A DNA stretch of 64,000 nt from Squalus acanthias (taxonomy: Eukaryota): contig CM059431.1 in NCBI GenBank assembly GCA_030390025.1, positions 99,512,001 through 99,576,000 on the forward strand, written 5' to 3'. Shown here in pieces: positions 3,481 through 62,012 of this stretch (position 1 is its first letter; every line of letters begins with the position of its first letter). The position numbers and the translations under genes are program-made. The notes beneath the pieces were generated by a model. It worked only from the letters and a program-made list of their open reading frames with translations. It made no database searches and was not told the DNA's origin.

Positions 3481-3584
3481 TGTTGCATATCTTGTCATCT
3501 TATTTTTCAGTGAATTGATGATTTCCTGGATAATAATGAGAAGTCGCACAACACCAGGTTATAGTCCAACAGATTTATTTAATT

Positions 3585-3623
3585 TTACAAGCTTTCGGAG
3601 CAGTTCGCTCCTTCGTCAGGTAA
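3585..3623 (-). ncRNA. Minimal type-I hammerhead ribozyme motif (family B) in a Penelope-like repeat fragment ~3538-3630
   Basis: Minus strand reads ttac-CTGACGA-aggagc gaact gctcc-GAAA-gc-TT-gtaa; the flank is nearly identical to 49460-49545. Confidence 0.75.
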
Positions 3624-4504
3624 GTTAGCAGTGAGAGAATCTCCCAGAATTCACAATTTAAACACAGACAAAATCTATTCACATCTTTCCCTACATCAAA
3701 GAGCACAGCCAAGACAATGAGATGTGTCCCAGGGGGTCCAACGTGTCAAACCACCTGCTGGCTGCATATCCTGTCAATTTGTGTAGGTTCTTGTGTTAGT
3801 CTTTTTAAAAAAAAAAACACCTGGGAAGACCGGCCATGATGTCAAGTCACGTTCTGTATCGTGACATGAACCCGATATCGCGATTCCTGGATAATATAAG
3901 AGCTCTTTTCTCATCGCAGCTGGAAATAGTTGACAGATCAATATTGTCCACATAAATGAGCAAAGCACCCTAGCACTAATATACATAAATCATTTCCTAC
4001 ATTCTATTGTAAGCTAGCGACTGTGACTAACTCAATTGACTCACTCTGTTGCTCTTATTTTGCCCACTTGAAAAGAATTAACCGTAAACGACATTTAATG
4101 GAGGCTCATTTTTTTTTTAGTTTTTAGATTATTTTGTACCCTCATTACTCCCAAGAGAACTTGGGGTAGTGTTTCGTGAATTGGTGCTTGCTCTGCGACT
4201 GAGTAGCTTATCAGGAAATGTGCTTGATTAGGAGCTCTGCTTTGGGAGCATTACTCTGTAAAATCTATCATTTTGAAATAGTAGCGTTGAACACTCCTGG
4301 TGAGAGTGGATGGGGAGTGGGACTAGACGGACACCTTTCAGAGAGCTGGCACAGGCTCGATGGGCCAGGTGACCCCTGCCTCTACTGTAAAATCCCATGA
4401 TTCGAAGTAACTTTGGAGAATTACTTTAAACTAGATCACAAGAGTGGCGCAAACCAAACCACAAGAACCTTAAATGGGAATGAGATAAATATTTGCAAAA
4501 GAAA

Positions 4505-8842: not shown

Positions 8843-9150
8843 CAGGTTGAGCGTCCCAAATCCGGAATGTTCCGGAATCTGGACTCCGGGACGATTGGTG
8901 GCAGGGGTCCGGAATCCGTAAAATGTTCTGGAATCCGGACACCCTGAGGGAGGCTTACCAAAAACGCAACCTGGGCCCAGGCATTTCCGGACTCGGCACG
9001 TGTTTCTGATGTCCGAAGTCCGGAAATATCGCAACCTGGGCTCGGGCGTTTCCGGACTTCGGACATCAGAAACACGTTCCGAAGTCCGGAAAACCCGAAA
9101 ACCGGCTCGGCCTCGGTCCCGAAGTTGCCGGATTCGAGACGCTCAACCTG
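8843..9150. mobile_element. Tc1/mariner (Tigger/pogo-like) MITE
   Basis: TIRs CAGGTTGAGCGTC / GACGCTCAACCTG flanked by TA at 8841-8842 and 9151-9152; internal TCCGGA-rich palindromes. Confidence 0.9.
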
Positions 9151-9209: not shown

Positions 9210-9545
9210 GAGAATTACATCGAATTTACAGCACAGAAACAGGCCATTCGGCCCAACTGGTCCGTGCCGGTGTTTCTGCTCCACACGAGCCTCCTCCCGC
9301 CCCTCTTCATCTCACCCTATCAGCATATCCTTCTATTCCTTTCTCCCTCATGTATTCCATTCTCCCTCATGTGCTTGTCTAGCTTTTTTCCTAAATGCAT
9401 CTTTGCTATTCGCTTCAACCTGTGGCAGCGAGTTCCACATTCTCACCACTCTCTGGGTAAGGAAGTTTCTCCTGAATTCCCGATTGGATTTCTTGGTGAC
9501 TATCTTATATTGATGGTCCCTAGATTTAGACTTGCCACAAATGGC
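9210..9545 (-). mobile_element. CR1 3' fragment
   Basis: Homologous to the CR1 at 42855-42958 plus 49287-49456. Confidence 0.8.
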
Positions 9546-12095: not shown

Positions 12096-12316
12096 TGTGA
12101 GGGGGCAGGGACAGGGTACTGGATTTGGATGATCAGCCATGATCGTATTGAATGGTGGAGCAGGCTCGACGGGCCGAATGGCCTACTCCTGCTCCTAGTT
12201 TCTATGTTTCTATGTTTCTATGTAGAACTCCCCTGCTCTTCTTCGAAATAGTGCCATGGGATCTTTTGAGAGAGCAGACGGGGCCTCGGTTTAACGTCTC
12301 ATCTGAAAGATGGCAC

Positions 12317-19122: not shown

Positions 19123-19332
19123 ACAAAAGCAAAATACCGCGGATGCTGGAAATCTGAAAAAAACCCAGAAAATGCTGGAAACACTCAGCAGGTCAGGCAG
19201 CATCTGTGGAGAGAGAAACAGAGTTAACGTTTCGGGTCGATGACCCTTCGTCAGAACTGGGCAGTTTCTGTTTCTCTCTCCACAGATGCTGCCTGACCTG
19301 CTGAGTATTTCCAGCATTTTCTGTTTTTATTT
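19123..19332. mobile_element. Short non-autonomous Penelope pLTR-derived fold-back element with 14-bp TSD
   Basis: TSD ctgaagtccctcat at 19109-19122 and 19333-19346; inverted arms ~19166-19222 and ~19267-19325; homologous to the Penelope end at 45773-45873. Confidence 0.85.
19222..19258 (-). ncRNA. Minimal type-I hammerhead ribozyme motif (family A)
   Basis: Minus strand reads agtt-CTGACGA-agggtc atc gaccc-GAAA-cg-TT-aact. Confidence 0.8.
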
Positions 19333-26122: not shown

Positions 26123-26434
26123 GGTTTAACATGTTGAAACAAGAAGCAGTCCTATGTTAGCTTTATGATTTGCTCTTTTACAGAATGCATTCCCTCGTTA
26201 TAATTCAGTCCAATTAAAATCCTCCGTAATTATCATCTTCCATGTCCCTATTGCACCTTTTATTTGTGAAAATAATTTCAAATCAATTTCCTGCTCTTGC
26301 CCCATTGGTATACAGCAATTCCCAGTTAGTCATGTATTTCCTTTCCACCACAAGTTTCCAACAACATTGACTTGAACCTCCTGTCCGCCAAAACTACAAA
26401 GCCACAATTCTTCAGCCCCAGTGGCATAGAAAAG

Positions 26435-27385
26435 AAAAAAAGAATGACTTGCATTTTTACAGCGCCTTTCACAACATCAGGTTGTCCCAAAGCGCTTTAC
26501 TGAAGTACTCTTTGAAGTGCAGTCACTGTTGTAATGCAGGAAACGCGGCAGCCAATTTGTGCACAGCAAGCTCCCACAAACCGCCAATGTGACAAAAACC
26601 AGATCATCTGTTTTGGTGATGGTGGTTGAGGAATGAATATTGACCAGGACACCGGGGAGAACTCCCCTGCTCTTCTTCAAAATAGTGCTGTGAGATTCTT
26701 TTACGTCCACCTGACAGACGGGGCCTCGGTTTAACATCTCATCCGAAAGTATGGTACCTCCGACAGTGCGGCGCTCCCTCAGTACTGCCTCTCCGACAGT
26801 GCAGCGCTCCCTCAGTACTGCCCCTCCGACAGTGCAGCGCTCCCTCAGTACTGCCCCTCCGAGAGTGCGGCACTCCCTCAGTACTGCCCCTCCGACAGTG
26901 CAGCCCTCCCTCAGTACTGCCCCTCCGACAGTGCGGCACTCCCTCAATACTGCCCCTCCGACAGTGCAGCGTTCCCTCAGTACTGCCCCTCCGACAGTGC
27001 GGCACTCCCTCAGTGCTGCCCCTCCGACAGTGCAGCGTTCCCTCAGTACTCCCCCTCCGACAGTGCGGCACTCCCTCAGTACTGACCCTCCGACAGTGCG
27101 GCGCTCCCTCAGTACTGCCCCTCCGATAGTGTGGCGCTCCCTCAGTACTCCCCCTCCGACAGTGCGGCACTCCCTCAGTACTGACCCTCCGACAGTGCGG
27201 CGCTCCCTCAGTACTGCCCCTCCGACAGTGCAGCATTCCCTCAGTACTGACCCTCCGACAGTGCGGCGCTCCCTCAGTACTGCCCCTCCGACAGTGCGGC
27301 GCTCCCTCAGTACTGCCCCTCCGACAGTGCGGCGCTCCCTCAGTACTGCCCCACCGACAGTGCGGCGCTTCCTCAGTACTGCCCA
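26435..27385 (-). mobile_element. Deu-domain SINE with 33-bp array (26757-27384, ~19 copies), abutting an L2 fragment at 27386-27512
   Basis: Deu domain at 26435-26756, then the array, then L2 FKSLHGLA on the minus strand. Confidence 0.9.
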
Positions 27386-27514
27386 TCCAAGGGTTGTGGG
27401 ACTGATGGAGGTTACAGAGATAGGGAGGGCAGCGAGGCCATGGAGGGATTTGAACACAAATATGAGAATTTTAAAATTGAGGTGTTGCTGAACCGGGAGT
27501 CAATTTAGGTCAAC

Positions 27515-27795
27515 TGGTGGGCGTAAAAGATCCCATGGCCACTATTTTGAAGAAGAGCAGGTGAGTTCTCCCCGACGTCCTGGCCAATATTTATCCCTCA
27601 ACCAACATCACTAAAACAGATTATCTGGACATTATCACATTGCTGTTTGTGGGATCTTGCTGTGCGCAAATTGGCTGCCACGTTTCCCACATTACAACAG
27701 TGATTACACAACAAAACGTACTTCATTGGCTGTAAAGCACTTTGAGGCGTCCTGAAGTCGTGAAAGGCGCTATTGAAATGCAAGTCTTTCTTTTA
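27515..27795 (+). mobile_element. Deu-domain SINE, 3' half
   Basis: gtaaaagatcccatggc...gaaaggcgctattgaaatgcaagtctttc. Confidence 0.9.
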
Positions 27796-28841
27796 TTTTT
27801 ATAAAGCTCTTCGAAGAACTCTACTGACTATTCAAATATCACATTGAAATTTGCGTTTTAATACTGCAACTGTGCCAAACAAAATAAGGCTGATTCTTCT
27901 CTCCCCAAGTGCATGCGAGCAGATTAGCAGCGTTTGGTTGCTGGTATCTTAATCAGTTTTTTCGGCCAGTTTAGATAAGCCTGTTTTTTGAAGAAAAAAA
28001 ATTAAATCAGCAAAACCTGTTGAAGTCACAAGATTCTACATTCAGTCCTAGATCATAGGACATTCGACTGTATCTCAAAGGTCCATCGCACAGAAATGAT
28101 GCATTCCATTAAGAAATATCGCTCTGCTGAAACTGCTCATTCGATTGATGAATAAGTGACTGTTATCAGGACTGGGGCTTTTAAAAAACAAAAAAATAAC
28201 ATACAGCGAAAATGTCATTTGCTATAATTGAGTCATTGGATTTCGATATAACTGTGGAATGTCTAAAAGATGCTTCTTTCATCTACGAACCAGACTCTCC
28301 TTGTTGGAGCTATTGGGATCGTACTATACCATTGCTCCTCAGGGAATAGTTAATACAATTGTTTAGTGTTGGGATAAAAGTGCACTTGGGAGCATGCAGA
28401 AAGATGCTGTCAATGAAAGTGAAATAGGACCTTCTGGGGTTTTGTTTTACTAACCTCTGCCTGCTCACCCCGAAACTTGTCTATTCCAAAGGTCATTAGT
28501 GTCTTGTTCTGACTTATTCCACTTGGACAAACAGAAGCACCAGGGTAAATGTATTTGAAAATCGTGATCAAAAAATGGTTTGTATTAATTTTGGCCTCTC
28601 TACCTCTCTTTCCTCCTTTAAAACGCTCCTTAAAACCGACCTCTTTGACCAAGCTTTTGCTCACCTGTCCCTAATATCTCCTTATGTGGCTCGGTGTCAA
28701 ATTTTGCCTGATAACGCTTCCATGCTTTTGTACTTTTTAGACCAGACTCCTCTTTGGTACTGTGGTGGGGGAGGTGAGGGAGGGCGTGAGAAGAAGGCAG
28801 AGCAACGGGCTCCACACACAACACTACGCTGGGTCCAAATC

Positions 28842-32543: not shown

Positions 32544-33099
32544 CACCATCACTCGATTTCACACTCCCAGCCACCAGCTCTTCAAGGTTGACCTGCAAGG
32601 CCATTTGCAGTGTCCCTCACTGAAAGTCAGCAGCCTTCCACCAGCCATGCTGCAGCCACTGGGGTAGCACTGTGTGATATCAGTAGGATAGGCAAAGGCA
32701 CACACAAGACACTCACTAAGGGAATGCATAAGGGTGTGAGTTGATTTCTTGATGTCATATTGGATGAATAGCTGTATAAAGTTGGATTGGAAAGTTTGCT
32801 TTGTGGTGGCTTTTATTTCAGCATCGTGGCCAAGAGGACACTGTGATGGTCAGTAACAGAGGGAAGGTAAGGTGTGGGACAAATGTTGAAAGGGGAATTG
32901 AGGTTGTGGTCTCTGGTACCACAGGTGAATGATTCCATCCTGGATATCCCAGCCAGAAAGGGGCTGTCTGGGTTGCATCCTTCCTTCCGCTTCCTTCTCT
33001 TCTGCTTCTTCCTCTTCCCTCTGTGAGCATCTTGTCCCCTTCGCTGCCTGTGCTTCATCTCCATGTGTCCCCTAGGATTGTGAGCAAAAGGTCTTCTCA

Positions 33100-33258
33100 G
33101 AAGCAAAATACTGCAGATGCTGGAAATCTGAAATAAAAGCAGAAAATGCTGAAAATACTCAGCAGGTCAGACGGCATCTCGACCCGAAACATGAACTCTG
33201 TTTCTCTCTCCACGGATGCTGCCTGGCCTGCTAGGTATTTCCAGCATTTTCTGTTTTA
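33100..33258. mobile_element. Penelope pLTR-derived fold-back fragment (family A) with incomplete hammerhead core
   Basis: Homologous to 19123-19332, with inverted arms; only gacccgaaac of the ribozyme remains. Confidence 0.75.
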
Positions 33259-44810: not shown

Positions 44811-45834
44811 ATATATTCCTTGTTGGACGGAAGAAAGTGAGGTTCTCTACCAGGAATATTCGCTGAACAAGAACCAGCCACAGCCACCGCAATGCTGGAA
44901 TCCTTGAACTCGGCCAGACGTGAAAGGTGGAGGAGCCTTGTGGAGAAGACTAACTTCACTCACTCCAGCAGGAAAGCGCGGGCCCTGCTCCGTCAACCTG
45001 GCGGGGCAAACCCCGCCAATAAACACAGGACGACCATCAGAGCGGATGCCATTGCATCCCACTTGAGACAAACATCAAAGGCTCCGGTGGACAAAGAATT
45101 TCGACGCCAGGTGAAGCGGCAGCTTTCGACAAACTTGTTGGCGGCACCAAGATCATCAACGATGTCTGATCCATTCACCTTGGACGAACCAAACGCAGCG
45201 CTGTCGACAACCAAATCTGGAAAAGCTGCTGGTCCAGATGGTGTTTACCCCGAATTCCTAAAAGCACTGGGACCCAAAGCGAAGTGATGGTTGACCTCCT
45301 TCTCCGAGGTACTGGCAACCGGTAAAATTCCACCTATTTGGAGGGAGACCAAAATAATTGCCCTCCTGAAGCAGGGGAAGAATGCTTGTGAAGCCTCCAG
45401 CTACCGCCCGATCTCCTTACTTTGCACTTGTTATAAAGTGCTGGAGAGGCGACTACTCCACAGACTGGCCCCCATCATCGAGCGAACCATTCCTAAGGAG
45501 CAAGCAGGCTTCCAGAGCGGCCGTAACTGCTGCGACCAAGTGGGAGCTTTAACAACGCACATCGAAGCAGGCTTCCAGCGCCAGCTCAAGACCGCCGTCG
45601 CACTCGTGGACCTGTCAGCGGCGTATGACACAGTATGGAAGCATGGACTGCTTTTCAAGCTCTCCACCATTTTACCCTGCAGAACAACGATCAACCTTCT
45701 CAACTCCACGCTTAGCAACCGACGCTTCCGTGTGTATTCTGGCAACAAGAAGAGCAGATATAGGACATTAAACAAAAACAGAAAATTCTGGAGACACTCA
45801 GCAGGTCAGGCAGCATCTGTGAAGAGAGAAACAG

Positions 45835-45871
45835 AGTTCACGTTTCAGGTCGATGACCTTTCGTCAGAACT
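45835..45871 (-). ncRNA. Minimal hammerhead motif (family A) in the Penelope pLTR; cleavage site reads UG rather than UH
   Basis: Minus strand reads agtt-CTGACGA-aaggtc atc gacct-GAAA-cg-TG-aact. Confidence 0.7.
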
Positions 45872-46164
45872 GGAAAAAAGCAGGAAATGGAACAGATTTT
45901 TAAGTGTAGGAGCTGGAAAAGGGGGGAGGGGATGAAAGAACAAAAGGGAAGGTCTGTGATAGGATAGAAGGCAGGAGAGGTTAAGAGACATTAAGAGATA
46001 TTCAAGGCAAAAGGAGATGGTAATGGGACAGGTTAAGAAACAAAGGATGGCTCGATGAAGTGTAAATTGCACTGGCAGAATGGAAGACAGCTGCCATGTG
46101 GGAGAGAAGAAAAGACACAAACAAAAGGTGTGGATAAAAAATATATATACGATAGGGGCCGAGG

Positions 46165-48181
46165 TTATAATCTGAAATTGTTGAACTCTATATTGAGTCC
46201 AGAGGGCTGTAAAGTGCCTAATCGAAAGATGAGGTGCTGTTCCTCGAGCTTACACTGAGCTTCAGTGGAACAATGCAAGAGGCCGAGGACGGTGAGGTCA
46301 GAGTGGGAGTGGAGCGGAGAATTAAAGTGACAGGCGACCGGAAGCTCGGGGTCCCCCTTACGGACTGAACGGAGGTGTTCCGCAAAGCAGTCACCCAATC
46401 TGTGTTTGGTCTCCCCAGTGTAGAGGAGACCGCATCGTGAGCAGCGAATACAGTATACTAAATTGCAGGAAGTACAAGTAAATTGCTGTTTCACCTGGAA
46501 GGGGTGTTTGGGGCCCTGGACAGTGGGAAGGGCGGGGAGGTATAAGGGCATGTGTTGCATCTCCTGTGCTTGCACGGGAAGGTGCCGGGCGAAGGGGAAG
46601 GGGTGTTGGGGGTGATAGAGGAGTGTACTAGGGTGTCGCGGAGGGAGCGGTCCCTTCGGAATGCTGAAAGCGGAGGTGAGGGGAAGATGCGTTTGGTGGT
46701 GAGATCACGCTGGAGGTGGCGGAAATGGCGGAGGATGATCCGGTGAATGTGAAGGCTGGTGGGGTGAAAGGTGAGGACAAGGGGAACTCTATCGTGGTTC
46801 CGGGAGGGAGGGGCATGGGTGAGAACAGAAGTGCGGGAGATAGAACGGACACGGTCGAGGGCCGTGTCAACCACAGTAGTGGGGAATCCTCGGTTGAGAA
46901 AAAGGAAGACATGTCGGAAGCACTGGTATGGAAGGTGGGATCGTCAGAGCAGATGCGGCGGAGACGGAGAAACTGGGAGAATGGAATAGAGTCCTTACAA
47001 TAGGCGGGGTGGGAGGAAGTGTAGTCCAGGTAGCTGTGTGAGTCAGTGGGCTTGTAGTGAATGTTTGTCAATAACCTATCCCCAGAGATGGAGACGGAGA
47101 AGTCGAGGAAGGGAAGGGAAGAGTCGGAGATGGACCATGTGAAGGTGAGGGGAGGGTGGAAATTGGAAGCAAAGTGAATGAAATTATCTAGTTCAGGGCG
47201 AGAGCAGGAAACGACACCGATACAATCATCAATGTACCGGAAAAAGAGGTGAGGGAGGGGACCTGAGTAGGACTGGAACAAAGAATGTTCCACATATCCC
47301 ACGAAAAGGCAGGCATAGCTAGGAACCATGCGGGTACCCATAGCAACACCTTTAATTTGGAGGAAGTGAGTAGAGTCAAAGGAGAAGTTGTTCAATGTGA
47401 GAACAAGTTCAGCCAGGCGGAGGAGGGTGGTGGTGGATGGGGACTGGTTGGGCCTCTGTTCAAGGAAGAAGTGGAGCGCCCTCAGGCTATCCTGGTGGGG
47501 GATGGAGGTGTAGAGGGATTGGACATCCATAGTGAAAAGGAGGTGGTTGGGGCCAGGAAACTGGAAACTGTTAAAGTGGCGGAGGGCGTCGGAAGAGTCG
47601 CAGATGTAGGTGGGAAGAGACTGGACAAGGGTAGAAAAAATAGAATCGAGATAGGAAGAGATAAGTTCCGTGGGGCAAGAACAGGCTGAAACGATGGGTC
47701 TACCGGGGCAGTCCTGTTTGTGGATCTTGGGAAGGAGGTAGAAGCGGGCTGTGTGGGGTTGGGGAACTATGAGGTTGGCGGCTGTGGAGGGAAGATCTCC
47801 AGATGAGATGAGGTCAGTGACGGTCTTGGACACGGTGGCTTGATGTTCGGTAGTGGGGTCATGGTCCAGGCGGAGGTAGGAGGAGGTGTCGGAGAGTTGG
47901 CGTTCAGCTTCCGCTAGGTAGAGGTCGGTTCGCCAAACAACAACAGCACCACCCTTGTCAGCAGGTTTAATGACAATGTCGGGGTTGGATCTGAGAGAAT
48001 GGAGTGCTGCAAGTTCAGAGGGAGGTAGGTTGGAGTGAGTGAGGGGAGCAGAGAAATTGAGACGGCCGATGTCACGCCGGCAGTTTGCAATGAAAAGATC
48101 TAGAGAGGTTAAGAGGCCAGAGGGAGGGGTCCAGGTAGAACAAGAATTCTGAAAGCGGGAGAAAGGGTCAGCCGTGCGGGG
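46165..48181 (-). pseudogene. Penelope RT-GIY-YIG polyprotein, frameshifted and lacking its N-terminus
   Basis: IKPADKGG, FYLLPKIHK..GRPIVS, MDVQSLYTSIP, GVAMGT, RYIDD and PFLD in 46628-48205; linker in 46491-46874; VYCIRC..CGLLYTGET..EH...E..LI..L.T..P.GLN in 46165-46575. Confidence 0.95.
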
Positions 48182-49456
48182 GGACATTAAATAATGGACT
48201 CCCACAGGGTTCTGTCCTGGAACCCATGTTATTCAACGTTTACACCAGTGACCTGCCCGAAACAGAGTCCCACAAGTTCTTATACGCTGACGACATTGCC
48301 TTCGCCACGCAAAACATGAATTTGTCCATCACCGAGGAGACCCTAACCAGTGATTTACAGAGGATGGAGGCCGGCTTCCACCAATGGTGACTTCGGCCAA
48401 ACTCGCAAAAGACCGTCACCTCGACCTTCCACCTCAACACCCATCAAGCAAACCAAGCTTTGGAAGTCTCCTCCTGCGGTGCAGAGGTAAATCATGCCCA
48501 AAACCCTCCTATTTAGGAGTCCCGCTCGATTGCACCCTGTCGTATAGACAACATCTCCAGAACTTTGGGAAGAAACTAAAGAGTAGGGTCAACTTGATCC
48601 AGAAACTCACCGGATCCACATGGGGAGCAGATGCTCAAACCCTCTGTACAGCAGCACTCGCCCTGGTGTACTCTACAGCGGAGTACTGCTCTCCGGCATG
48701 GCTATCGAGTCCGCATTTCAAATCTGTTGATGTCCAGCTCAATTCTACTATGTGAATTATCACCAGTATGCTTTTATCGACACCGACACCTTGGCTGCCT
48801 GTGCAACCGCTACACCAGCAAAGACATGCCGATCCAGGCAGACTTGAACAACCTACCACCAACCCGTCTCAAATCTAGAAGGCCTCTTTGGACCGTCGCC
48901 GAAGCCCTTCAGCGATCCCCCTTCAGCCTTGATGACCGATGGCGAAATGCTTGGAGGAACTGCGACATATGGAATGGATTCCTTATAGAGGACCCCACAG
49001 TACAACCTGAAGGATCAAACCTTCCTCGCAAACCATGGACAACCGTCAACCACCTCAGAACCGGTCATGGTAGATGCTGCCACCTTCTCCATCGATGGAA
49101 GATTAAAGCATCCTCATCATGCGACTGTGAGCTCCTGATCAGACCCTGGAGCACATCATTGAGCACTGCCCTCAGAGGAAATTCACAGGCAGCCGACAAG
49201 ATGTTGCACCGGAAGCTTTGGCCTGGATATCTGACTTAGATATTGACATCTGATTGCTTTGCTACTACCATACAAAAGAAGAAGACCTCACCCCATCAGC
49301 ATATCCTTCTATTCCTTTCTCCCTCATGCACTTATCCAGCTTCCCCTTAAATACATCTCTGCTCTTCGCCTCGACCACTCCCTGTGGTAGTTAGTTCCAC
49401 ATTCTCACCACTCTCTGGGTAAAGAAGTTTCTCCTGAATTCCCTACTGGATTTATT

Positions 49457-49702
49457 TAGTGAGAAGTCGCACAACACCAGGTTATAGTCCAACAGCTTTA
49501 TTTGAAATCACAAGCTTTTGGAGCGCTGCTCCTTCGTCAGGTGAAGTGAAGAAATACATGAAGGTATTCCTTCACTTCCCCTGACGAAGGAGCAGCAGCT
49601 CCGAAAGCTTGTGATTTCAAATAAAGCTGTTGGACTATAACCTGGTGTTGTGCGACTTCTCACTTTTGTCCACCCCAGTCCAACACCGGCATCTCCGCAT
49701 CA
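49457..49702. mobile_element. Fold-back element with two hammerhead motifs on opposite strands (family B; Penelope origin inferred)
   Basis: Inverted arms 49458-49551 and 49570-49664; flanking duplication tggatttatt at 49447-49456 and 49703-49712. Confidence 0.85.
49577..49614 (+). ncRNA. Minimal hammerhead motif (family B); mirror copy on - at 49508-49544 has GAAA changed to AAAA
   Basis: tccc-CTGACGA-aggagc agca gctcc-GAAA-gc-TT-gtga. Confidence 0.7.
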
Positions 49703-50098
49703 TGGATTTATTGGTGACTATCGTATATTTATGGCCCCTAGTTTTGGTCTCCCCCACAAGTGGAAACATCCTCTCGATGGCCACCCTATCAAACCTTTCC
49801 ATAATTTTAAAGACCTCTATCAGGTCACCCCTCAGCCTTCTCTTTTCTAGAGAAAAGAGCCCCAGCCTGTTCAATCTTTCCTGATAGTTACAACCTCTCA
49901 GTTCTGGTGTCATCCTTTTAAATCTATTTGCCCTTTCTCCAGTGCCTCTACATCCTTTCTGTAATATGGAGACCAGACCAGGTGCTCCAAGTGTGGTCTA
50001 ACCGAGGTTCTATATAAGTTTAACATAACTTCTCTGCTTTTGAATTCTATTCCTCTAGAAATTCTATTCTTCTAGACTTGAGAAACAAAGTAACTCAC

Positions 50099-60879: not shown

Positions 60880-62012
60880 AAAAAAGACTCCCATTTCTAC
60901 AGCGCCTTTCACAACCTCCGGACGTCCCAAAGTGCTTTACAGCCAATGAAGTATTTTTGAAGTGTAGTCACTGTTGTAATGTAGGAAACGCAGCAGCCAA
61001 TTTGCGCACAGCAAGCTCCCACAAACAGCAACGTGATAATGACCAGATAATCTGTTTTTTTTAAGTATTGTTGATTGAGGGATAAATGTTGGCCCCAGGA
61101 CACTCGGGAGAACTCCCCTGCTCCTCTTTGAAATAGTGCCATGGGGTCTTTTCCATCCACCTGAGAGGGCAGACGGGGACTTGGTTTACGAGGGGCTGTA
61201 CTGAGGGAACGCTGCACTCTCAGAGGGTCAGTACTGAGGGAACGCTGCACTGTCGGAGGGTCAGTACTGAGGGAACGCTGCACTCTCAGAGGGTCAGTAC
61301 TGAGGCAGTGCTGCACTGTCGGAGGGGCAGTACTGAGGGAGGGCTGCACTGTCGGAGGGGCAGTACTGAGGGAGCGCCGCTCTGTCGGAGGGGCAGTACT
61401 GAGGGAGCGCCGCACTGTCGGAGGGGCAGTACTGAGGGAGCGCTGCACTGTCGGAGGGGCAGTACTGAGGGAGCGCCGCACTGTCGGAGGGGCAGTACTG
61501 AGGGAGCGCTGCACTGTCGGAGGGGCAGTACTGAGGGAGCGCTGCACTGTCGGAGGGGCAGTACTGAGAGAGCGCTGCACTGTCAGAGGGGCAGTACTGA
61601 GTGAGGGCTGCACTGTCGGAGGGTCAGTACTGAGGGAGGGCCGCACTGTCGGAGGGGCAGTACTGAGGGAGCGCCGCATTGTCGGAGGGTCAGTACTGAG
61701 GGAGCACCGCACTGTCGGAGGGGCAGTACTGAGGGAGCGCCGCATTGTCGGAGGGGCAGTACTGAGGGAATGCTGCACTGTCGGAGGTGCCGTCTTTTGG
61801 ATGAGACACTAAACCGAGGCTCCATCTGCTCTCTCAGGTGGATGTAAAAGATCCCACGGCACTATTTTGAAGAAAGGCAGGGGAGTTATCCCCGGTGTCC
61901 TGCTCAATATTTATCCCTCAACCAACATCACTATAACACATTATCTGGTCATTATCTCTTTGCTGTTTGTGGGAGCTTGCTGTGTGCACAATGGGTGCCG
62001 CATTTCCTAGAC
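60880..62012. mobile_element. Two inverted Deu-SINE halves (- 60880-61188; + 61788-62012) flanking a 33-bp array (61192-61787, ~18 copies)
   Basis: The Deu domain is present in both orientations around the array. Confidence 0.9.

What the first reader, a model, noticed from the sequence alone, without database searches (positions are those of the whole stretch)
49457..49702. TSD-flanked fold-back element with two hammerhead ribozyme motifs on opposite strands
Seen: a ~245-bp insert in a CR1 forms an almost perfect ~100-bp hairpin (arms 49458-49551 and 49570-49664, with pairing continuing nearly to a 6-nt loop). Each arm holds a CUGACGA..GAAA-GC-UU core. The + copy has an intact core but a stem-I mismatch; the - copy has GAAA changed to AAAA. 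A third copy at 3585-3623 has stem I TTAC/GTAA instead of TCAC/GTGA, a compensatory change. Known: Penelope pLTRs carry minimal type-I hammerheads with a short palindromic helix III proposed to work as dimers, and PLE insertions often have inverted 5' ends. Inference: this is either an extreme inverted truncation of a second Penelope family or a dedicated non-autonomous 'ribozyme hairpin' element that presents a hammerhead whichever strand is transcribed.
Basis: partly seen in the sequence, partly recalled or inferred. Interest (0 to 1): 0.7.

Follow-up and report, generated by a model that had tools for sequence, protein, structure and literature searches.

The report
Fold-back Penelope retroelement stub with hammerheads
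This hairpin-shaped insertion is real, but it looks like an ordinary dead stub of a Penelope-like jumping gene, laid down as two back-to-back copies of the element's ribozyme-bearing end, a pattern already described for this class.

Summary
A 246-bp insert (49457-49702) sits in a CR1-type repeat between exact 10-bp target duplications. It folds into a 101-bp hairpin, and each arm carries a minimal type-I hammerhead motif, both damaged. The right arm runs 38 bp beyond the left. [quoted passage not shown] Opposite-strand hammerhead pairs were reported in 2014. Contigs of public runs show that the family runs on upstream of the breakpoint and has two preferred 3' ends about 40 nt apart. A second family in the window, tied to an RT plus GIY-YIG gene, has two such fold-backs with different breakpoints. 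The 'ribozyme whichever strand' idea fails on geometry: in either read-through RNA the antisense arm is made first and zips the motif shut. One point is unexplained: both arms start at the same family position. No whole genome was held, so the genome-wide breakpoint test was not run. Earlier scan notes report the same pattern in this genome and two others. Verdict: new member of a known kind, low interest.

The parts
49447..49456 (+). left target-site duplication (TGGATTTATT)
   Evidence: single copy in the empty paralog
49457..49557 (-). inverted, tail-less copy of the PLE end; covers C3-17 to C3+83 (C3 = first core base of the hammerhead)
49508..49544 (-). minimal type-I hammerhead motif, stem I intact, G12 changed to A (GAAA to AAAA)
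   Evidence: G12 as general base from PMC6155905 passage
49558..49563 (.). 6-nt junction filler and hairpin loop; TGAAGG across it also occurs a few bases away in the antisense strand of the arm
49564..49664 (+). direct 5'-truncated copy of the PLE end, C3-17 to C3+83
   Evidence: other copies run on upstream of 49564, table 7
49577..49614 (+). minimal type-I hammerhead motif: core 49581-87, extra A 49588, stem II 49589-93/49598-602, GAAA 49603-06, palindrome AAGCTT 49605-10, predicted cut after 49610; stem I has one mismatch
49665..49702 (+). 38-bp PLE tail, present on the direct copy only, 66% A+C
   Evidence: two 3'-end clusters; tail definition in PMC8557442 and PMC11167929
49703..49712 (+). 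right target-site duplication
49287..49997 (-). host repeat, CR1-type LINE fragment (family name recalled from its C-terminal protein motif, not tested)
   Evidence: many paralogs in the window; reading frame
3527..3625 (-). solo tail-less copy of the same family (88% alike), hammerhead 3623-3585 with C-G to T-A change in stem I

Best explanation
The insert is one dead-on-arrival insertion of an abundant endonuclease-positive Penelope-like retroelement. Shown: a staggered cut in an AT-rich site gave an 8-10-bp duplication; both target ends are joined to 3' ends of the element, one at the outer end (with tail) and one at the inner end (38 bp shorter); the two copies meet at their truncated 5' ends through a 6-nt filler. 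Inferred: the element's GIY-YIG nuclease cut both strands, each freed 3' end primed reverse transcription at one of the two internal start sites of the RNA, both cDNAs stopped after about 100-140 nt, and their ends were joined by repair or template slippage. The hammerhead is a passenger: it lies 83-121 nt upstream of the start sites, so most stubs of 100 nt or more carry it. It works, if at all, in the master element's RNA (as a dimer through its palindrome, probably with protein help), not in this copy, where it is decaying and is locked in the hairpin. If the locus is read through it would give a 100-bp double-stranded RNA, not a ribozyme.
For: Tail asymmetry of 38 bp matches the 30-40-bp tail and adjacent inverted 5'-truncated copy described in PMC8557442. 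PMC11167929 shows cutting and extension of both target strands, two RT start sites that bound the tail, and a 5'-ATT-3' preference; the duplication here holds ATT twice. The outer end lies 119 nt from the start-codon-equivalent position of the core, against 111-118 in Anolis PAc. In public contigs: heterogeneous loose ends behind 49703-49704 (70, 83, 100 contigs in X1 and X4) and behind 49660 (255 contigs in X6); a shared upstream continuation before 49564 (20 and 32 contigs); two opposite-strand joints in X1 at other places (49574/49664, 49574/49666). A second family in the window has the same motif plan and is attached to a gene with RT (PF00078, E 5.8e-05, under the gathering score; atlas 0.97) and GIY-YIG (atlas 0.96). 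Its two fold-backs show the same tail asymmetry, with arms offset by 40 and 35 nt; in one, neither arm keeps a whole hammerhead and the tail-less arm reaches further 5' than the tailed arm. PMC4209133 reports pairs of minimal hammerheads 100-700 bp apart on opposite strands in Schistosoma, and links the mostly solitary motifs to truncated PLEs.
Against: This family's own RT/endonuclease gene was not seen, so its PLE membership rests on anatomy and on the sister family. Both arms start at exactly C3-17, which two independent truncations would give only a few times in 100 by my rough estimate; this suits snap-back synthesis or a fixed RNA 5' end better. The genome-wide breakpoint survey was not possible. 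No listed contig spans this locus, so the insertion itself is known from the window only. Only the best-supported rows of the loose-end table are shown (24 shown, 857 not).
Confidence: 0.88

Rival explanations
1. Same element, different route (a variant of the best explanation, not exclusive of its main claim): one cDNA primed at the outer site stopped at C3-17, folded back on itself and primed its own second strand, which was then cut or resolved at the inner site by the element's nuclease.
For: The symmetric breakpoint and 6-nt loop; 61 outer columns of the arms are identical. PMC8557442 suggests that tails come from nuclease resolution of the intermediate.
Against: Snap-back cannot give an inverted arm that reaches further 5' than the tailed arm, as at 33098-33257, unless the centre was later deleted. 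The left arm stops at the family-wide inner end, which independent priming explains directly.
Confidence: 0.3
2. A discrete non-autonomous hairpin element with a fixed inversion point that is itself copied by PLE proteins and offers a hammerhead on either strand.
For: Near-perfect symmetry; both arms keep most of the motif; non-autonomous PLE derivatives with hammerheads exist (tandem retrozymes).
Against: The antisense arm is transcribed first in both directions and blocks the fold. Both motifs are damaged. The only other copy in the window is a solo arm. Other family members continue upstream of the breakpoint or invert elsewhere. The sister family makes fold-backs with no regard for motif integrity.
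Confidence: 0.05
3. A DNA-transposon MITE with long terminal inverted repeats, or a microRNA-type hairpin gene.
For: Short, non-coding, inverted repeat with a target duplication; weak Rfam miRNA matches (35-37 bits).
Against: The repeat is not terminal on the right (38-bp tail); arms occur alone and with heterogeneous 3' flanks at two end points; Rfam scores are under half of the gathering scores (80-96 bits) and reflect the long hairpin.
Confidence: 0.02
4. An assembly artefact (fold-back chimera of a read).
For: Fold-back chimeras are a known artefact (recalled); no laid contig spans the locus.
Against: The flanks are colinear with the empty site and carry an exact duplication; the arms differ at 4 positions; the asymmetry equals the biological tail.
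Confidence: 0.02

Closest known systems
Complex insertions of canonical endonuclease-positive Penelope-like elements (Craig et al. 2021, PMC8557442; passages and Fig. 2 legend read)
   Same: 5'-truncated copy with an inverted 5'-truncated copy directly at its 5' end; 30-40-bp tail at one end only; hammerhead in the pseudo-LTR; variable-length target duplication.
   Different: Here both copies are cut to about 100-140 bp and start at the same position, so the whole insert is one hairpin; the coding part of this family was not seen.
Minimal hammerheads of metazoan PLEs (Cervera and De la Pena 2014, PMC4209133; introduction, results and discussion read)
   Same: Type-I core, 4-bp helix I, unpaired base between positions 9 and 10.1, G10.1-C11.1 pair, palindromic 15.2-16.2; opposite-strand pairs a short distance apart are mentioned for Schistosoma.
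   Different: Helix II is 5-6 bp, not the 7-8 bp of the Schistosoma motifs; the two cores here are only 41 bp apart; the text read names no cartilaginous fish.
PAc, Poseidon-type PLE of Anolis carolinensis (Frangieh et al. 2024, PMC11167929; parts 1-2 of 4 read)
   Same: Two RT start sites bounding the tail, ATT-containing target, both strands cut and extended, similar distance from hammerhead core to 3' end (119 against 111-118 nt).
   Different: In PAc the ORF starts in the hammerhead; here the matching codon is ACG and the frame closes within 10-19 codons (read by eye). The paper does not treat fold-back products in the text read.
Non-LTR retrozymes (Cervera and De la Pena 2020, PMC7229834, passages; Li et al. 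2026 bioRxiv 10.64898/2026.07.22.740005, part 1 of 5 and passages)
   Same: Short, non-coding, type-I hammerhead, related to PLE pseudo-LTRs.
   Different: Retrozymes are head-to-tail tandems with same-strand ribozymes that release circular RNA; this insert is head-to-head and cannot release a monomer.

Membership tests
Endonuclease-positive PLE insertion | Direct 5'-truncated copy with adjacent inverted 5'-truncated copy | tested here: met
   upstream continuation in other copies
Endonuclease-positive PLE insertion | 30-40-bp tail at one end only | tested here: met
   38 bp; two 3'-end clusters
Endonuclease-positive PLE insertion | Target-site duplication at an AT-rich site | tested here: met
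Endonuclease-positive PLE insertion | Minimal type-I hammerhead near the 3' end | tested here: met
   (motif scan; no Rfam model matched)
Endonuclease-positive PLE insertion | Linked gene for telomerase-like RT with C-terminal GIY-YIG nuclease | not testable with these tools
   No genome held; no long copy of this family in the window. Met only for the sister family at 45776-48171.
PLE minimal hammerhead | Conserved core C3-A9 and G12-A15 | tested here: met
   Met for the plus arm and the third copy; the minus arm fails at G12
PLE minimal hammerhead | Extra base after A9, G10.1-C11.1, palindromic helix III | tested here: met
PLE minimal hammerhead | Self-cleavage as dimer or with protein | not testable with these tools
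   bench test needed
Non-LTR retrozyme | Two or more head-to-tail units, each with a same-strand hammerhead | tested here: not met
   arms are head-to-head on opposite strands
Non-LTR retrozyme | Expressed as circular RNA | not testable with these tools
   no raw RNA reads were available for this stretch
Discrete hairpin family | Same inversion junction at many loci | tested here: inconclusive
   no genome; other copies run on or invert elsewhere, but contigs cannot show absence
MITE | Inverted repeats reach both termini and copies share both ends | tested here: not met
   38-bp unpaired end; solo arm at 3527-3625

The most novel reading that the evidence does not exclude
The shared breakpoint at C3-17 is not chance: it marks a fixed 5' end of a short family RNA (a start site or strong stop just upstream of the hammerhead), so the element regularly lays down near-perfect hairpins of one size, by two-ended priming on a protein dimer or by snap-back. 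Such hairpins, read through by host transcription, would be a self-made source of double-stranded RNA against the family, and a few might be re-copied as a hairpin sub-family. A survey of arm offsets in this genome would then give an in vivo read-out of how PLEs finish integration, a step that the papers read call undefined.
Probability: 0.12. Interest if true: 0.5.

Novelty: new member of a known kind. Interest (0 to 1): 0.15.

Why it matters
As a single locus it matters little: it is a clear, compact example of a known insertion pattern. Its use is as data. Short fold-backs with an intact target duplication record both priming sites and the junction of one event, so a large set of them could separate two-ended priming from snap-back, which is still open for PLEs. 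It also warns that such stubs can be mistaken for MITEs, microRNA hairpins or two-way ribozyme devices.

Tried and rejected
Whole-genome search: no genome held. Rfam: no hammerhead family up to E = 5; 13 weak matches, none at gathering score. Collection scans for other copies: metagenome contigs 0 and 0, viral contigs 0; genome contigs gave 22 loci for a 17-mer, none extending beyond 37 aligned bases, fewer than the 69 expected by chance, so rejected as chance. Cover over the hairpin centre: summed contig depth at 49540-49557 was 55 (X1), 80-85 (X4), 0 (X6) and 0 (X11), against 1e5-1e7 over most of the arm. This is what a single-copy junction would give, but I do not count it as evidence: contigs show presence and not absence, the runs are shallow, the stretch lies at the edge of the reference, and hairpins may be under-recovered. 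I laid 4 of the 20 runs that hold part of the stretch, on 251 bases (right arm, loop and 18 bases of the left arm). Expression: no RNA holder listed. Whether the two arms came from two different templates: the extra A at 49597 is left out in 36-53 contigs per run, but its share (5-11% in three runs, 87% in X11) cannot be read as an allele frequency, so this is unresolved. Linkage of the two stem I changes of the third copy: the 3' half (49613 G>A) is seen at about 13% of depth in X1 and X4, 1% in X6 and 0 in X11, but no row covers the 5' half, so the compensatory pair rests on one copy. Hammerhead-defined 5' ends: only one listed joint falls at the predicted cut (49611), not enough to judge. 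The upstream continuation was sought in the window: 1 match at 3 mismatches, chance level. No clear target duplication for the third copy or for the 33098-33257 fold-back. The third copy was parsed with a wrong loop length and redone. Literature: 7 searches found no paper on fold-back PLE stubs in cartilaginous fish or on small RNA from them; the library lacks most subscription journals and Repbase/Dfam. Supplements of PMC11167929 (3 text files) had none of my terms, and its Fig. S2 could not be seen; bioRxiv supplements are closed.

Full report
Observation. The insert spans 49457-49702 and is bounded by the exact 10-mer TGGATTTATT on both sides. Removing it and one duplicate restores a sequence that aligns without a break to a paralogous repeat at about 9440-9545, and contigs from 4 of 4 runs laid show that empty site (table 7). 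The host repeat has many copies in the window; I call it CR1-type from a recalled protein motif in the minus-strand frame. The insert folds into one hairpin from 49458 to 49664 with a 6-nt loop (z = -24.6). The arms differ at 4 of 101 columns. A strict descriptor finds 3 motifs in the window and 0.01 per random 64 kb. Rfam has no matching model at E up to 5; the identification rests on the features listed in PMC4209133: 4-bp helix I, an unpaired base after A9, G10.1-C11.1 and a palindrome in place of helix III.

What it is. PMC8557442 describes PLE insertions as 5'-truncated, often with an inverted 5'-truncated copy next to the 5' end and a 30-40-bp tail at one end. PMC11167929 shows in vitro that a lizard PLE cuts and extends both target strands, prefers ATT, and starts reverse transcription at two internal sites that bound the tail. 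PMC4209133 already notes pairs of minimal hammerheads 100-700 bp apart on opposite strands, and links the mostly solitary motifs to truncated PLEs. The insert fits this plan point by point.

Other copies. No whole genome was held and the prokaryotic and viral collections gave nothing real. I therefore laid contigs of four public runs on 49540-49790. Between 9,934 and 25,510 records per run were laid on that stretch, arm and flank together, so both are abundant repeats. Heterogeneous loose ends cluster behind 49703-49704 (X1, X4) and behind 49660 (X6), which are the outer and inner 3' ends. In X1 and X4, 20 and 32 contigs continue before 49564 with a shared different sequence, so the arm is the cut end of a longer element. 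X1 has two opposite-strand joints at other places, each with a shorter side of 38-40 letters, the length of the tail. The runs may not be from the window's species, no listed piece spans the locus, and most rows of the loose-end table were not shown. The low cover at the hairpin centre is reported under Tried and rejected only.

An internal control. The window holds a second family with the same motif plan. [quoted passage not shown] This family has two fold-backs, at about 19123-19332 (14-bp exact duplication) and 33098-33257. Both have the tail on one arm only. Their arms start at C3-8 and C3+32, and at C3+49 and C3+14. So fold-backs arise repeatedly, at different points, with one whole hammerhead or none. 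The finding is the case in which both arms happen to be long enough to keep the motif.

How it works. Shown: both target ends are joined to element 3' ends, one outer and one inner, and the copies meet at their 5' ends. Inferred: a staggered double cut, priming from both target ends, early stop, and joining through a short filler that repeats a nearby 6-mer of the antisense strand. Snap-back of a single cDNA is the main rival for this copy, because both arms start at C3-17; it cannot by itself explain the 33098-33257 copy. I give the by-product reading 0.88 overall, and within it two-ended priming about two thirds. The ribozyme is unlikely to act here. In both read-through directions the antisense arm is made first; the closing pair of stem II has predicted probability 0.0000 at all 10 lengths tested, against 0.02-0.16 for the plus arm alone, which is itself low, and forcing the fold costs 61 kcal/mol. 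These are equilibrium predictions, not kinetics. The C-G to T-A change in stem I of the third copy, whose 3' half recurs at about 13% of depth in two runs, suggests selection on the motif in master elements, not in stubs.

Against my reading. The family's own gene was not seen. The exact symmetry is unexplained: 1 of 3 fold-backs in the window is symmetric, and this one was picked for being so. All 4 arm differences fall in the inner 40 columns (p about 0.02, noticed after the fact). A rare discrete family cannot be excluded without the genome.

Novelty. New member of a known kind. Seven literature searches found no paper on this family or on such stubs in cartilaginous fish, but the library is incomplete and repeat databases were not available. 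That the genome is of a shark-like fish is my recall of its repeats and the wording of earlier scan notes, not a test. Earlier notes of this scan report the same pattern in this genome and in two others; they are unchecked and came after my reading was stated.

Noticed in passing
window 45776-48171 (-): 5'-truncated, frameshifted PLE of a second family: RT with DKG motif, a C-x4-C-x2-C linker (Neptune-like by the description in PMC8557442), GIY-YIG region, tail-less 3' end, duplication GGACATTAAA. It splits the RT gene of another non-LTR element (about 44841-49270, +). Its hammerhead has G at position 17.
   Followed up: partly
window 19123-19332 and 33098-33257: Two fold-back insertions of the second family with tail on one arm and different inversion points; the first has a 14-bp exact duplication and one intact hammerhead.
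   Followed up: yes
window 49655-49680 (+) and 19124-19200 (-): By eye, both families have a pyrimidine tract ending in CAG at the start of the tail, and the first has a branch-site-like CTCAC at the inner 3' end. PLEs carry introns, so the inner end may lie near a 3' splice site. Untested idea.
   Followed up: no
window 49713-49775, tables 5 and 5c: Several contigs join ends of this PLE family to the same host-repeat region at other points (for example 49663 to 49724, 49667 to 49725, 49661 to 49735), which hints at a local insertion hot spot in this repeat.
   Followed up: no
window 49574: Four listed joints end at 49574 (C3-7), a possible second preferred 5' breakpoint or a subfamily boundary.
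   Followed up: no
window 8984-9092: 110-bp imperfect inverted repeat within a CCGGA-rich element (about 8850-9150); no hammerhead motif found by the scan.
   Followed up: no
window 26432-27800 and 60982-62009: Inverted pairs of an abundant short repeat flank arrays of a 33-bp minisatellite; further 33-bp arrays lie near 12200, 21600, 39100 and 41300.
   Followed up: no
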